From Escherichia phage T7: DNA of 39,096 nucleotides. This document shows, piece after piece, positions 902 through 12,505 of the stretch. Every line of letters starts with the position of its first letter. Position 1 is the first letter of the stretch. The stretch lies in sequence record AY264777.1; one strand, 5' to 3'. The position numbers and the translations under genes were made by a program. Below the pieces are notes generated by a model. That model had not been told where the DNA came from and searched no databases. It saw nothing but the letters and a program-made list of their open reading frames with translations.

Positions 902-1255
902 ATGGTTATGTCTAACATGACTTACAACAACGTTTTCGACCACGCTTACGAAATGCTGAAAGAAAACATCCGTTATGATGACATCCGTGACACTGATGAC
1001 CTGCACGATGCTATTCACATGGCTGCCGATAATGCAGTTCCGCACTACTACGCTGACATCTTTAGCGTAATGGCAAGTGAGGGCATTGACCTTGAGTTCG
1101 AAGACTCTGGTCTGATGCCTGACACCAAGGACGTAATCCGCATCCTGCAAGCACGTATCTATGAGCAATTAACGATTGACCTCTGGGAAGACGCAGAAGA
1201 CTTGCTCAATGAATACTTGGAGGAAGTCGAGAAGTACGAGGAGAATGAAGAGTAA
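902..1255 (+). CDS. ocr: Gene 0.3 Ocr, DNA-mimic anti-restriction protein (117 aa)
   Basis: ORF track 902..1255; acidic protein matching recalled T7 Ocr apart from 3 substitutions. Confidence 0.92.
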
Positions 1256-1338
1256 TGTCTACTACCAACGTGCAATACGGTCTGACCGCTCAAACTGTAC
1301 TTTTCTATAGCGACATGGTGCGCTGTGGCTTTAACTGA
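1255..1338 (+). pseudogene. 0.4: Gene 0.4 (FtsZ inhibitor) truncated by premature TGA after 27 codons
   Basis: ATG at 1255 overlapping the ocr stop; tga at 1336-1338; reading through would give 51 codons ending at tga 1408-1410, the wild-type length. Confidence 0.7.
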
Positions 1339-1412
1339 TCACTCGCAATGGCACAGCTCAAAGAACTGTACGAAAACAACAAGGCAATAGCTTTAGAATC
1401 TGCTGAGTGATA

Positions 1413-1450
1413 GACTCAAGGTCGCTCCTAGCGAGTGGCCTTTATGATTA
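1413..1450 (+). promoter_or_regulatory. RNase III processing site R0.5
   Basis: Motif ctcaaggtcgctcctagcgagtggcctttatgatt, which recurs in intergenic regions. Confidence 0.55.
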
Positions 1451-1472
1451 TCACTTTACTTATGAGGGAGTA

Positions 1473-2329: not shown

Positions 2330-4981
2330 ATGAACACGATTAACATCGCTAAGAACGACTTCTCTGACATCGAACTGGCTGCTATCCCGTTCAACACTCT
2401 GGCTGACCATTACGGTGAGCGTTTAGCTCGCGAACAGTTGGCTCTTGAGCATGAGTCTTACGAGATGGGTGAAGCACGCTTTCGCAAGATGTTTGAGCGT
2501 CAACTTAAAGCTGGTGAGGTTGCGGATAACGCTGCCGCCAAGCCTCTCATCACTACCCTACTCCCTAAGATGATTGCACGCATCAACGACTGGTTTGAGG
2601 AAGTGAAAGCTAAGCGCGGCAAGCGCCCGACAGCTTTCCAGTTCCTGCAAGAAATCAAGCCGGAAGCCGTAGCGTACATCACCATTAAGACCACTCTGGC
2701 TTGCCTAACCAGTGCTGACAATACAACCGTTCAGGCTGCAGCAAGCGCAATCGGTCGGGCCATTGAGGACGAGGCTCGTTTCGGTCGTATCCGTGACCTT
2801 GAAGCTAAGCACTTCAAGAAAAACGTTGAGGAACAACTCAACAAGCGCGTAGGGCACGTCTACAAGAAAGCATTTATGCAAGTTGTCGAGGCTGACATGC
2901 TCTCTAAGGGTCTACTCGGTGGCGAGGCGTGGTCTTCGTGGCATAAGGAAGACTCTATTCATGTAGGAGTACGCTGCATCGAGATGCTCATTGAGTCAAC
3001 CGGAATGGTTAGCTTACATCGCCAAAATGCTGGCGTAGTAGGTCAAGACTCTGAGACTATCGAACTCGCACCTGAATACGCTGAGGCTATCGCAACCCGT
3101 GCAGGTGCGCTGGCTGGCATCTCTCCGATGTTCCAACCTTGCGTAGTTCTTCCTAAGCCGTGGACTGGCATTACTGGTGGTGGCTATTGGGCTAACGGTC
3201 GTCGTCCTCTGGCGCTGGTGCGTACTCACAGTAAGAAAGCACTGATGCGCTACGAAGACGTTTACATGCCTGAGGTGTACAAAGCGATTAACATTGCGCA
3301 AAACACCGCATGGAAAATCAACAAGAAAGTCCTAGCGGTCGCCAACGTAATCACCAAGTGGAAGCATTGTCCGGTCGAGAACATCCCTGCGATTGAGCGT
3401 GAAGAACTCCCGATGAAACCGGAAAACATCGACATGAATCCTGAGGCTCTCATCGCGTGGAAACGTGCTGCCGCTGCTGTGTACCGCAAGGACAAGGCTC
3501 GCAAGTCTCGCCGTATCAGCCTTGAGTTCATGCTTGAGCAAGCCAATAAGTTTGCTAATCATAAGGCCATTTGGTTCCCTTACAACATGGACTGGCGCGG
3601 TCGTGTTTACGCTGTGTCAATGTTCAACCCGCAAGGTAACGATATGACCAAAGGACTGCTTACGCTGGCAAAAGGTAAACCAATCGGTAAGGAAGGTTAC
3701 TACTGGCTGAAAATCCACGGTGCAAACTGTGCGGGTGTCGATAAGGTTCCGTTCCCTGAGCGCATCAAGTTCATTGAGGAAAACCACGAGAACATCATAG
3801 CTTGCGCTAAGTCTCCACTGGAGAACACTTGGTGGGCTGAGCAAGATTCTCCGTTCTGCTTCCTTGCGTTCTGCTTTGAGTACGCTGGGGTACAGCACCA
3901 CGGCCTGAGCTATAACTGCTCCCTTCCGCTGGCGTTTGACGGGTCTTGCTCTGGCATCCAGCACTCCTCCGCGATGCTCCGAGATGAGGTAGGTGGTCGC
4001 GCGGTTAACTTGCTTCCTAGTGAAACCGTTCACGACATCTACGGGATTGTTGCTAAGAAAGTCAACGAGATTCTACAAGCAGATGCAATCAATGGGACCG
4101 ATAACGAAGTAGTTACCGTGACCGATGAGAACACTGGTGAAATCTCTGAGAAAGTCAAGCTGGGCACTAAGGCACTGGCTGGTCAATGGCTGGCTTACAG
4201 TGTTACTCGCAGTGTGACTAAGCGTTCAGTCATGACGCTGGCTTACGGGTCCAAAGAGTTCGGCTTCCGTCAACAAGTGCTGGAAGATACCATTCAGCCA
4301 GCTATTGATTCCGGCAAGGGTCTGATGTTCACTCAGCCGAATCAGGCTGCTGGATACATGGCTAAGCTGATTTGGGAATCTGTGAGCGTGACGGTGGTAG
4401 CTGCGGTTGAAGCAATGAACTGGCTTAAGTCTGCTGCTAAGCTGCTGGCTGCTGAGGTCAAAGATAAGAAGACTGGAGAGATTCTTCGCAAGCGTTGCGC
4501 TGTGCATTGGGTAACTCCTGATGGTTTTCCTGTGTGGCAGGAATACAAGAAGCCTATTCAGACGCGCTTGAACCTGATGTTCCTCGGTCAGTTCCGCTTA
4601 CAGCCTACCATTAACACCAACAAAGATAGCGAGATTGATGCACACAAACAGGAGTCTGGTATCGCTCCTAACTTTGTACACAGCCAAGACGGTAGCCATC
4701 TTCGTAAGACTGTAGTGTGGGCACACGAGAAGTACGGAATCGAATCTTTTGCACTGATTCACGACTCCTTCGGTACCATTCCGGCTGACGCTGCGAACTT
4801 GTTCAAAGCAGTGCGCGAAACTATGGTTGACACATATGAGTCTTGTGATGTACTGGCTGATTTCTACGACCAGTTCGCTGACCAGTTGCACGAGTCTCAA
4901 TTGGACAAAATGCCAGCACTTCCGGCTAAAGGTAACTTGAACCTCCGTGACATCTTAGAGTCGGACTTCGCGTTCGCGTAA
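2330..4981 (+). CDS. 1: Gene 1, T7 RNA polymerase (883 aa)
   Basis: ORF 2330..4981; full-length single-subunit RNAP; specificity-loop region as recalled for wild type. Confidence 0.98.
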   Translation: MNTINIAKNDFSDIELAAIPFNTLADHYGERLAREQLALEHESYEMGEARFRKMFERQLKAGEVADNAAAKPLITTLLPKMIARINDWFEEVKAKRGKRPTAFQFLQEIKPEAVAYITIKTTLACLTSADNTTVQAAASAIGRAIEDEARFGRIRDLEAKHFKKNVEEQLNKRVGHVYKKAFMQVVEADMLSKGLLGGEAWSSWHKEDSIHVGVRCIEMLIESTGMVSLHRQNAGVVGQDSETIELAPEYAEAIATRAGALAGISPMFQPCVVLPKPWTGITGGGYWANGRRPLALVRTHSKKALMRYEDVYMPEVYKAINIAQNTAWKINKKVLAVANVITKWKHCPVENIPAIEREELPMKPENIDMNPEALIAWKRAAAAVYRKDKARKSRRISLEFMLEQANKFANHKAIWFPYNMDWRGRVYAVSMFNPQGNDMTKGLLTLAKGKPIGKEGYYWLKIHGANCAGVDKVPFPERIKFIEENHENIIACAKSPLENTWWAEQDSPFCFLAFCFEYAGVQHHGLSYNCSLPLAFDGSCSGIQHSSAMLRDEVGGRAVNLLPSETVHDIYGIVAKKVNEILQADAINGTDNEVVTVTDENTGEISEKVKLGTKALAGQWLAYSVTRSVTKRSVMTLAYGSKEFGFRQQVLEDTIQPAIDSGKGLMFTQPNQAAGYMAKLIWESVSVTVVAAVEAMNWLKSAAKLLAAEVKDKKTGEILRKRCAVHWVTPDGFPVWQEYKKPIQTRLNLMFLGQFRLQPTINTNKDSEIDAHKQESGIAPNFVHSQDGSHLRKTVVWAHEKYGIESFALIHDSFGTIPADAANLFKAVRETMVDTYESCDVLADFYDQFADQLHESQLDKMPALPAKGNLNLRDILESDFAFA

Positions 4982-9865: not shown

Positions 9866-10320
9866 TGGCTCGTGTACAGTTTAAACAACGTGAATTTACT
9901 GATGCAATCTTTGTTCACTGCTCGGCTACCAAGCCAAGTCAGAATGTTGGTGTCCGTGAGATTCGCCAGTGGCACAAAGAGCAGGGTTGGCTCGATGTGG
10001 GATACCACTTTATCATCAAGCGAGACGGTACTGTGGAGGCAGGACGAGATGAGATGGCTGTAGGCTCTCACGCTAAGGGTTACAACCACAACTCTATCGG
10101 CGTCTGCCTTGTTGGTGGTATCGACGATAAAGGTAAGTTCGACGCTAACTTTACGCCAGCCCAAATGCAATCCCTTCGCTCACTGCTTGTCACACTGCTG
10201 GCTAAGTACGAAAGCGCTGTGCTTCGCGCCCATCATGAGGTGGCGCCGAAGGCTTGCCCTTCGTTCGACCTTAAGCGTTGGTGGGAGAAGAACGAACTGG
10301 TCACTTCTGACCGTGGATAA
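9865..10320 (+). CDS. 3.5: Gene 3.5, lysozyme (N-acetylmuramoyl-L-alanine amidase, RNAP inhibitor) (151 aa)
   Basis: ORF 9865..10320; MARVQFKQREFTDAIFVHCSATK... Confidence 0.95.
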   Translation: MARVQFKQREFTDAIFVHCSATKPSQNVGVREIRQWHKEQGWLDVGYHFIIKRDGTVEAGRDEMAVGSHAKGYNHNSIGVCLVGGIDDKGKFDANFTPAQMQSLRSLLVTLLAKYESAVLRAHHEVAPKACPSFDLKRWWEKNELVTSDRG

Positions 10321-10383: not shown

Positions 10384-12424
<2,041 letters not shown>

Positions 12425-12482
12425 CAGGATTCTTGATGACTTTCCAGACGACTACGAAAAGTTTCGCTGGAGAGTCCCATTC

Positions 12483-12505
12483 TAATACGACTCACTAAAG
12501 GAGAC
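12483..12505 (+). promoter_or_regulatory. T7 promoter phi4.3
   Basis: taatacgactcactaaaggagac. Confidence 0.85.

What the first reader, a model, noticed from the sequence alone, without database searches (positions are those of the whole stretch)
1255..1410. Gene 0.4 (FtsZ inhibitor) is cut to 27 codons by a TGG->TGA change
From the ATG at 1255 the frame reads [27 protein letters not shown] and stops at tga 1336-1338. Replacing that codon with tgg restores a 51-codon ORF ending at 1408-1410, which is the wild-type gp0.4 length and matches its recalled C-terminus (WSLAMAQLKELYENNKAIALESAE). The change is G->A at 1338. Loss of 0.4 should be tolerated in the laboratory.
Basis: partly seen in the sequence, partly recalled or inferred. 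Interest (0 to 1): 0.5.

Follow-up and report, generated by a model that had tools for sequence, protein, structure and literature searches.

The report
T7 gene 0.4 knocked out by stop
A single G-to-A change puts a stop codon in the middle of phage T7's small cell-division-inhibitor gene 0.4; this is a real but ordinary and already recorded knockout in a laboratory-mutagenised T7 lineage.

Summary
Window 1255-1338 reads 27 codons and then TGA. The only difference from wild-type T7 in the 156-nt gene 0.4 is G->A at 1338 (TGG->TGA, W28*). The window is a heavily mutated laboratory T7: 306 substitutions against the Bull-lab ancestor AY264774, 93% of them G:C->A:T. It is almost certainly the unheld record AY264777. 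Its descendant AY264778 (isolate P82) carries the same allele, annotated there as 'similar to gene 0.4', not as a CDS. The stop removes W28 and the whole second helix. Published mutagenesis shows that W28, M32, L35 and Y39 are each needed for FtsZ binding, so the allele is best read as a null. It fits neutral mutation accumulation. Non-essential genes carry about the expected number of nonsense hits (2 seen, 3.7 expected), and essential genes carry none (10.7 expected). The stop was not reverted in P82, and 0.4-defective T7 phages are viable in other studies. There is no sign of programmed readthrough or recoding. Verdict: real, correctly interpreted, already known, low interest. One side prediction: this phage should escape the CapRel(Ebc) defence, which senses the Gp0.4-FtsZ complex.

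The parts
1255..1338 (+). Truncated gene 0.4 ORF: 27 codons ([27 protein letters not shown]) plus a premature TGA
   Evidence: translation and ORF list; alignment to T7 references.
1336..1338 (+). Premature stop codon TGA (wild type TGG, Trp28). The mutated base is G->A at 1338.
   Evidence: the only difference from NC_001604 and AY264774 inside the gene. T7+ position 1361, codon 28. W28 is invariant in homologues down to 45% identity.
1339..1410 (+). Now-untranslated remnant of gene 0.4 (codons 29-51, SLAMAQLKELYENNKAIALESAE, and the original stop TGA at 1408-1410). It is identical to wild type.
1348..1410 (+). 20-codon ATG ORF (MAQLKELYENNKAIALESAE) inside the remnant, starting 10 nt after the new stop. 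It is a theoretical re-initiation product, has no Shine-Dalgarno-like sequence upstream, and is not considered functional.
   Evidence: ORF list; upstream sequence ctgatcactcgca. The peptide would lack W28 and helix 1 (V15, V22), which are required for FtsZ binding.
902..1255 (+). Gene 0.3 (ocr), intact with 3 substitutions (A2V, E111K, D115N). Its TAA stop overlaps the 0.4 ATG (TAATG). G1244A also weakens the GGAGG upstream of the 0.4 start.
1405..1456 (+). Stable hairpin immediately after gene 0.4, at the position of the T7 RNase III processing site R0.5. The part covered by the alignment (to 1440) is unchanged from wild type, so the 3' end of the 0.3/0.4 mRNA should be unaffected.
   Evidence: dG -25 kcal/mol, z = -3.6; 1405-1440 identical to the reference. 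Identity as R0.5 rests on established T7 knowledge (Dunn & Studier 1983) and was not tested here.

Best explanation
This is a loss-of-function (null) allele of bacteriophage T7 gene 0.4, made by one G:C->A:T transition (TGG->TGA, W28*). The genome is a laboratory T7 lineage that accumulated hundreds of alkylating-mutagen-type transitions: the Bull et al. 2003 series, lineage 'P', the ancestor of isolate P82. Translation starts normally at 1255 and ends at codon 28, releasing a 27-residue peptide that is roughly helix 1 of the two-helix hairpin. It lacks W28 and all of helix 2 (M32, L35, Y39). Each of these residues is individually required for binding monomeric FtsZ, so the phage can no longer sequester FtsZ and block host cell division. 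Gene 0.4 is dispensable for growth in laboratory culture, so the stop was fixed by drift or hitch-hiking and was not removed later. Shown here: the base change, its absence from wild type, its sharing with P82, the genome-wide mutation spectrum and the selection pattern. Taken from the literature: the residue requirements and the viability of 0.4-defective phage. Inferred: that the truncated peptide is inactive, and that fixation was neutral.
For: The allele is confirmed in the sequence and against references.
AY264778.1 (T7 isolate P82) carries the identical allele and annotates 1259-1414 as misc_feature 'similar to gene 0.4', not as a CDS.
AY264774 is the T7+ of Bull et al. 2003 (PMC2680503), and that study fixed random mutations through bottlenecks (PMC4811365).
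The window has 306 substitutions against T7+, 286 of them G>A or C>T. P82 shares 301 of them and adds 21.
Selection pattern: essential genes have 0 nonsense hits against 10.7 expected (P = 2e-5) and missense/synonymous 98/94 against 122/68 expected. Non-essential genes have 2 nonsense hits (0.4 and 4.2) against 3.7 expected and missense/synonymous 47/28 against 43/25 expected, which is neutral.
W28 is invariant in eight full-length homologues down to 45% identity.
PMC13423816: Gp0.4 is 51 aa, two antiparallel helices, and binds monomeric FtsZ with Kd 382 nM. [quoted passage not shown] T7 clones with a frameshift in 0.4 are viable.
Other laboratory T7 clones independently lost the second half of 0.4 by deletion after codon 25.
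P82 changed 4 other sites back to wild type but kept W28*.
Against: Inactivity of the 27-aa peptide is inferred from single-residue substitutions, not from a tested truncation.
UGA is the leakiest stop codon in E. coli K-12, and near-cognate tRNA-Trp would restore the wild-type residue, so a trace of full-length Gp0.4 cannot be excluded.
T7 lacking 0.4 is reported to be at a competitive disadvantage (Kiro et al. 2013, as cited). 'Neutral' therefore holds only for the bottlenecked or laboratory regime.
The window's identity as AY264777 is inferred from that accession's absence from the collection and the window's near-identity to P82. It was not checked directly.
Confidence: 0.9

Rival explanations
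1. Leaky stop (hypomorph, not null): near-cognate tRNA-Trp reads UGA often enough to make functional amounts of wild-type-sequence Gp0.4.
For: From established knowledge: UGA is the least efficient stop codon in E. coli K-12, and tRNA-Trp is its usual near-cognate reader, which would insert the original tryptophan. The Bull-lab host IJ1133 is a K-12 strain. The downstream 23 codons are intact.
Against: The base after the stop is U (TGAT), which from established knowledge is a strong termination context (Poole et al. 1995, recalled and not checked here). There is no stimulatory structure downstream: 1330-1400 folds no better than shuffles (z = +0.59). There was no Rfam hit. Gp0.4 acts by stoichiometric sequestration of abundant FtsZ monomers at Kd 382 nM, so readthrough at the per-cent level should be ineffective. 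An intact downstream frame is expected anyway for a recent mutation.
Confidence: 0.06
2. Adaptive loss: inactivation of 0.4 was positively selected under the laboratory passage regime and did not drift to fixation.
For: The stop was kept through the P-to-P82 phase, while 4 other sites changed back to the wild-type base. Other laboratory T7 clones independently deleted the distal half of 0.4. Early-region deletions are recurrently selected in laboratory T7 (PMC8923235; PMC6042481 abstract).
Against: The parallel K and K115 lines keep 0.4 open, with one missense change, L16F. The number of nonsense hits in non-essential genes is at or below the neutral expectation. Deletions are thought to gain from a shorter genome or faster entry, which a point mutation does not give. 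T7 lacking 0.4 is reported to be less competitive.
Confidence: 0.05
3. Sequencing or assembly error: the real phage has TGG.
For: It is a single-base difference in an early-2000s Sanger genome. P82 contains an N, and the ends of the window are incomplete.
Against: The same base is present in the separately deposited descendant genome AY264778, whose depositors deliberately demoted the gene to 'similar to gene 0.4'. The change is of the dominant mutation class in this genome.
Confidence: 0.02

Closest known systems
Wild-type T7 gene 0.4 / Gp0.4 (FtsZ inhibitor; Kiro et al. 2013 PNAS; NP_041955, T7 1278-1433)
   Same: Same locus, same start overlapping the gene 0.3 stop, and 155 of 156 nt identical. 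The first 27 residues are identical.
   Different: Codon 28 is TGA instead of TGG. The product lacks W28 and helix 2, so it should not bind FtsZ.
T7 isolate P82, GenBank AY264778.1 (Bull et al. 2003 series)
   Same: Identical W28* allele, the same 819-nt deletion in gene 0.7 and the same gene 4.2 nonsense change. 301 of the window's 306 substitutions are shared.
   Different: P82 has 21 further substitutions, 4 back-changes, 1-nt deletions in genes 2.8 and 4.7, and a 12-nt deletion in gene 7.3. It is a descendant of the window genotype, not the same record.
T7 escape mutants of the CapRel(Ebc) defence (Zhang et al. 2026, PMC13423816)
   Same: They are loss-of-function alleles of gene 0.4 in viable phage. 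They include a frameshift with a premature stop and a substitution at the very same residue, W28L.
   Different: Those alleles were selected by a defence system. This one arose under chemical mutagenesis and bottlenecking with no such selection known, and it is a nonsense mutation at codon 28.
Laboratory T7 clones MZ375283, MZ375290, OL964739 and others ('Mutant Escherichia phage T7 clone T7_260L' etc.), and refactored T7.1 (DQ100054, 'truncated protein 0.4')
   Same: The distal half of Gp0.4 is lost in laboratory phage.
   Different: In the MZ and OL clones the loss is by a deletion starting after codon 25 that also removes genes 0.5 and 0.6, giving a 43-aa fusion ORF. In T7.1 it is by design. 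Neither is a point nonsense mutation.

Membership tests
T7 gene 0.4 (Gp0.4 FtsZ-inhibitor family) | Genomic position: first small ORF directly downstream of gene 0.3 (ocr) in the class I early region, with its start overlapping the 0.3 stop | tested here: met
   TAATG overlap at 1253-1257. Gene order 0.3-0.4-0.5-0.6 as in NC_001604.
T7 gene 0.4 (Gp0.4 FtsZ-inhibitor family) | Sequence homology to T7 gene 0.4 | tested here: met
   155 of 156 nt identical to NC_001604 and AY264774.
T7 gene 0.4 (Gp0.4 FtsZ-inhibitor family) | Uninterrupted ORF of about 45-57 codons encoding both helices | tested here: not met
   Stop at codon 28. It is the gene's locus but a pseudogene or null allele, not a functional member.
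T7 gene 0.4 (Gp0.4 FtsZ-inhibitor family) | Conserved FtsZ-interface residues W28, M32, L35, Y39 | tested here: not met
   W28 is invariant in 8 full-length homologues and is replaced here by a stop. M32, L35 and Y39 lie after the stop. Their requirement comes from PMC13423816.
T7 gene 0.4 (Gp0.4 FtsZ-inhibitor family) | Binds FtsZ and blocks cell division | not testable with these tools
   Needs expression, two-hybrid or microscopy experiments.
Bull et al. 2003 mutagenised T7 lineage P (AY264777 / AY264778) | Derived from T7+ (AY264774) with hundreds of predominantly G:C->A:T substitutions | tested here: met
   306 substitutions, 286 of them G>A or C>T. AY264774 is tied to Bull et al. 2003 by PMC2680503.
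Bull et al. 2003 mutagenised T7 lineage P (AY264777 / AY264778) | Shares lineage-specific markers with isolate P82 | tested here: met
   The same 819-nt deletion in 0.7, the same 0.4 and 4.2 nonsense changes, and 301 of 306 substitutions shared.
Bull et al. 2003 mutagenised T7 lineage P (AY264777 / AY264778) | Is the record AY264777 itself | not testable with these tools
   AY264777 is absent from the collection. Its neighbours AY264774, AY264775, AY264776 and AY264778 are present.
Programmed stop-codon recoding (readthrough or selenocysteine) | Stimulatory RNA structure or element just downstream of the UGA, and conservation of the stop among relatives | tested here: not met
   There is no structure (z = +0.59) and no Rfam hit. 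All relatives have TGG. The TGA allele is absent from IMG/VR, while the TGG allele is found there.

The most novel reading that the evidence does not exclude
The W28* allele might not be a passive casualty of mutagenesis. It could be selectively favoured in serial laboratory passage, or act as a leaky UGA that tunes Gp0.4 down to a low, non-toxic dose. That would mean the FtsZ inhibitor is costly to T7 under high-density, short-cycle growth. A practical corollary is that this published lineage is already an escape mutant of CapRel(Ebc)-type defences that sense the Gp0.4-FtsZ complex.
Probability: 0.06. Interest if true: 0.3.

Novelty: already known. Interest (0 to 1): 0.1.

Why it matters
It matters little beyond correct annotation. 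Gene 0.4 in this genome should be marked as a pseudogene (W28*), as its depositors did for the sister record. The allele is a clean illustration that T7's FtsZ inhibitor is dispensable in laboratory culture. It also shows that, under heavy mutagenesis, nonsense mutations survive only in non-essential genes (0 of about 11 expected in essential genes). It gives a ready-made natural control: a T7 lineage predicted not to inhibit cell division and predicted to evade the CapRel(Ebc) defence, because it cannot form the Gp0.4-FtsZ complex.

Tried and rejected
- Recoding or readthrough element: the 71 nt around and after the stop fold no better than shuffles, and Rfam finds nothing in the whole window. 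Rejected.
- Natural polymorphism: an exact 25-mer with TGA is absent from IMG/VR, while the TGG version is found there. In 50,697 phage records, P82 was the only full-length 100% match listed for the TGA allele. Rejected.
- Other features overlapping the mutated base: NC_001604 annotates only gene 0.4 there. No promoter-like or terminator-like site lies in 1100-1700. The ORFs in other frames are 20-25 codons and unannotated. Nothing else is hit.
- Re-initiation at ATG 1348 giving a complementing C-terminal peptide: there is no SD-like sequence, and the peptide would lack W28, V15 and V22. Rejected as functional.
- Bull et al. 2003 (DOI 10.1007/s00239-003-2470-1) and Kiro et al. 2013 (PMC3845191) are not held in the library, so both are cited only through papers that cite them. 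The source paper for the MZ3752xx and OL964739 clones could not be found.
- Structure prediction was not run. The restored 51-aa sequence is not a window sequence, and published AlphaFold3 and ab initio models already give the two-helix hairpin.
- The large protein-database searches were not used, because the phage collection gave enough homologues.

Full report
OBSERVATION. The window reads exactly as the first-stage reader described. The ATG at 1255-1257 overlaps the TAA stop of the preceding 117-codon ORF (TAATG). The frame gives [27 protein letters not shown], then TGA at 1336-1338. The same frame continues SLAMAQLKELYENNKAIALESAE to TGA at 1408-1410. I aligned 1230-1440 to the T7 reference NC_001604 and to the Bull-laboratory wild type AY264774. 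Inside gene 0.4 there is one difference: window 1338 is A where both references have G, so TGG becomes TGA at codon 28 (T7+ position 1361). The reference gene (1278-1433) is 51 codons plus a stop.

WHAT THE WINDOW IS. The best match in 50,697 phage records is AY264778.1, 'Enterobacteria phage T7 isolate P82', at 100% over 900-1800 and 99.9% over the first 25 kb. AY264774 (T7+), AY264775 (isolate K), AY264776 (K115) and AY264778 (P82) are all in the collection. AY264777 is not. The window is very probably that record. AY264774 is stated to be the T7+ of Bull et al. 2003 (PMC2680503). That study is cited as an example of fixing random mutations by serial extreme bottlenecks (PMC4811365). From memory, unverified here because the paper is not held, nitrosoguanidine was the mutagen.

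A five-genome alignment gives the following:
- 306 substitutions between the window and T7+, of which 286 (93%) are G>A or C>T.
- A 23-nt shortfall at the left end.
- An 819-nt in-frame deletion in gene 0.7.
- P82 shares 301 of the 306 substitutions. It adds 21 of its own, returns 4 sites to the wild-type base, and has small deletions in genes 2.8, 4.7 and 7.3. It is therefore a descendant of the window genotype.
- P82 keeps the W28* allele, and its depositors annotated 1259-1414 as misc_feature 'similar to gene 0.4', not as a CDS.

The allele was thus already seen and recorded.

IS IT MORE THAN CHANCE? It is a real mutation, but it is what the mutation load predicts. At 286 transitions over 19,329 G/C sites (1.48% per site), the five nonsense-capable sites of gene 0.4 give a 7% chance of a hit. 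The 250 such sites in all non-essential genes give 3.7 expected hits, and two are seen: 0.4 W28* and 4.2 W59*. My list of essential genes comes from general T7 knowledge. Those genes have 723 such sites, so 10.7 hits are expected, and none is seen (Poisson P = 2e-5). Missense to synonymous counts tell the same story:
- Non-essential genes: 47 to 28 observed, against 42.7 to 24.6 expected, which is neutral.
- Essential genes: 98 to 94 observed, against 122.4 to 67.6 expected, which indicates purifying selection.

Gene 0.4 behaves like a dispensable gene taking a random hit.

WHAT THE MUTATION DOES. Gp0.4 is the T7 inhibitor of the cell-division protein FtsZ (Kiro et al. 2013, as cited in PMC4944311 and PMC13423816). 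Zhang et al. 2026 (PMC13423816) report the following:
- Gp0.4 is 51 residues, predicted to form two antiparallel helices.
- It binds monomeric FtsZ with Kd 382 nM at the synergy-loop face and so blocks polymerisation.
- W28L and L35P were isolated as phage escape mutants. They abolish toxicity and the two-hybrid interaction with FtsZ.
- V15A, V22A, W28A, M32A, L35A and Y39A each abolish toxicity.
- Non-binding variants accumulate to lower levels.
- T7 clones with a frameshift in 0.4 are viable.

The window's allele removes W28 itself and every residue after it, so the 27-residue product should be inactive and probably unstable. This is an inference from single-residue data, since no truncation was tested. 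W28 is invariant in eight full-length homologues down to 45% identity: T7, the K line, N30, WW2, P1338, Morganella MP2, Citrobacter CR8 and Rahnella Sarma103.

SURROUNDINGS. Gene 0.3 (ocr) upstream is intact with three substitutions. One of them, G1244A, also weakens the GGAGG ahead of the 0.4 start. The hairpin at 1405-1456 (dG -25 kcal/mol, z = -3.6) lies where T7's RNase III site R0.5 is, and the aligned part of it is unchanged, so mRNA processing should be normal. NC_001604 annotates nothing but gene 0.4 over the mutated base. There are no promoter-like or terminator-like sites in 1100-1700. The short ORFs in other frames and on the minus strand are unannotated.

RIVALS.
- Leaky UGA. Near-cognate tRNA-Trp would restore the wild-type protein, and the Bull-lab host is a K-12 strain. 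Against this, the fourth base is U, the region after the stop has no structure (z = +0.59), and Rfam finds nothing. A stoichiometric sequestering inhibitor would also need far more than per-cent expression. This rival is unlikely to matter.
- Adaptive loss. The stop persists in P82, and other laboratory T7 clones (MZ375283, MZ375290, OL964739 and others) independently lost the gene's second half, by a deletion after codon 25 that fuses it to the end of the 0.6 region. But the K and K115 lines keep 0.4 open with one missense change, L16F. The nonsense count is at neutral expectation. T7 lacking 0.4 is reported to be less competitive.
- Sequencing error. This is excluded in practice by the independent P82 record.
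- Natural polymorphism. The TGA 25-mer is absent from IMG/VR, while the TGG version is found there. P82 was the only full-length 100% match listed in the phage collection.

COMPARISON AND NOVELTY. The locus is T7 gene 0.4 by position and sequence. It fails the family's functional requirements of an open 51-codon frame with W28 and helix 2 present, so it is a pseudogene of a known gene in a known, published laboratory lineage. A closely related allele class (frameshift, W28L) has been characterised experimentally. Novelty: already known. The one mildly useful prediction is that this lineage should be blind to cell-division inhibition and should escape the CapRel(Ebc) defence, which needs the Gp0.4-FtsZ complex.

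VERDICT. The mechanism is a nonsense knockout of a dispensable early gene, fixed during mutagen-driven mutation accumulation (confidence 0.9). Interest is 0.1.

Noticed in passing
window 2146/2147 (ORF 1999-2259): An 819-nt in-frame deletion in gene 0.7 (protein kinase / host shut-off; T7+ 2170-2988) leaves an 86-codon fusion ORF. P82 shares it. The K and K115 lines carry different deletions in the same region.
   Followed up: partly
window 12321-12323 (gene 4.2, 12147-12485): This is the window's only other nonsense mutation, also TGG->TGA (W59* of 112). In the overlapping gene 4A/4B frame the same base change is E534K. P82 annotates the region as 'similar to gene 4.2'.
   Followed up: partly
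whole window: 306 substitutions against T7+ (AY264774), 93% of them G:C->A:T. Essential genes show 0 nonsense hits (10.7 expected) and a depressed missense/synonymous ratio. Non-essential genes match the neutral expectation.
   Followed up: yes
window 2443, 4699, 7001, 10220-10221, 10939, 11155, 12458, 14253, 16963, 18730, 18737, 25716, 29714, 29850, 29878, 31271, 33113, 34594, 35323, 35548, 35621, 35694, 39096: 24 derived substitutions are shared with the separate K lineage (AY264775), against about 5.6 expected by chance. Ten of the 24 are not G:C->A:T. Possible causes are parallel adaptation, mutational hot spots, or differences between the deposited T7+ and the true common ancestor.
   Followed up: partly
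window 3380, 3966, 4033 (gene 1), 16472 (gene 5.7), 18730 (gene 7.3): At these sites the descendant P82 has returned to the wild-type base, or at 3380 changed again. They are candidate compensatory or reversion events during fitness recovery. Three of the five lie in the T7 RNA polymerase gene, which carries 9 amino-acid changes in the window.
   Followed up: partly
window 1 (left end) and 39096 (right end): The window starts 23 nt inside the T7 left terminal repeat (4 nt further in than P82), and its last base differs from T7+ (A against T). This is probably incomplete end sequencing, not biology.
   Followed up: partly
L008 401-532 (MZ375283.1), L009 (MZ375290.1), L010 (OL964739.1): Other 'Mutant Escherichia phage T7' laboratory clones have a deletion beginning after codon 25 of gene 0.4. 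It removes the rest of 0.4 plus 0.5 and 0.6A, leaving a 43-codon fusion ORF just upstream of gene 0.7. The source study could not be found in the library.
   Followed up: partly
window 902-1255 and 1238-1245: Ocr (gp0.3) carries A2V, E111K and D115N. The D115N change (G1244A) converts the GGAGGA ahead of the 0.4 start to GGAGAA, which would probably lower 0.4 translation initiation even without the stop.
   Followed up: no
L006 1254-1409 (AY264775, isolate K): The independent K lineage keeps gene 0.4 open but has L16F. L16 is reported as needed for CapRel(Ebc) activation but not for FtsZ inhibition (L16A, PMC13423816).
   Followed up: no
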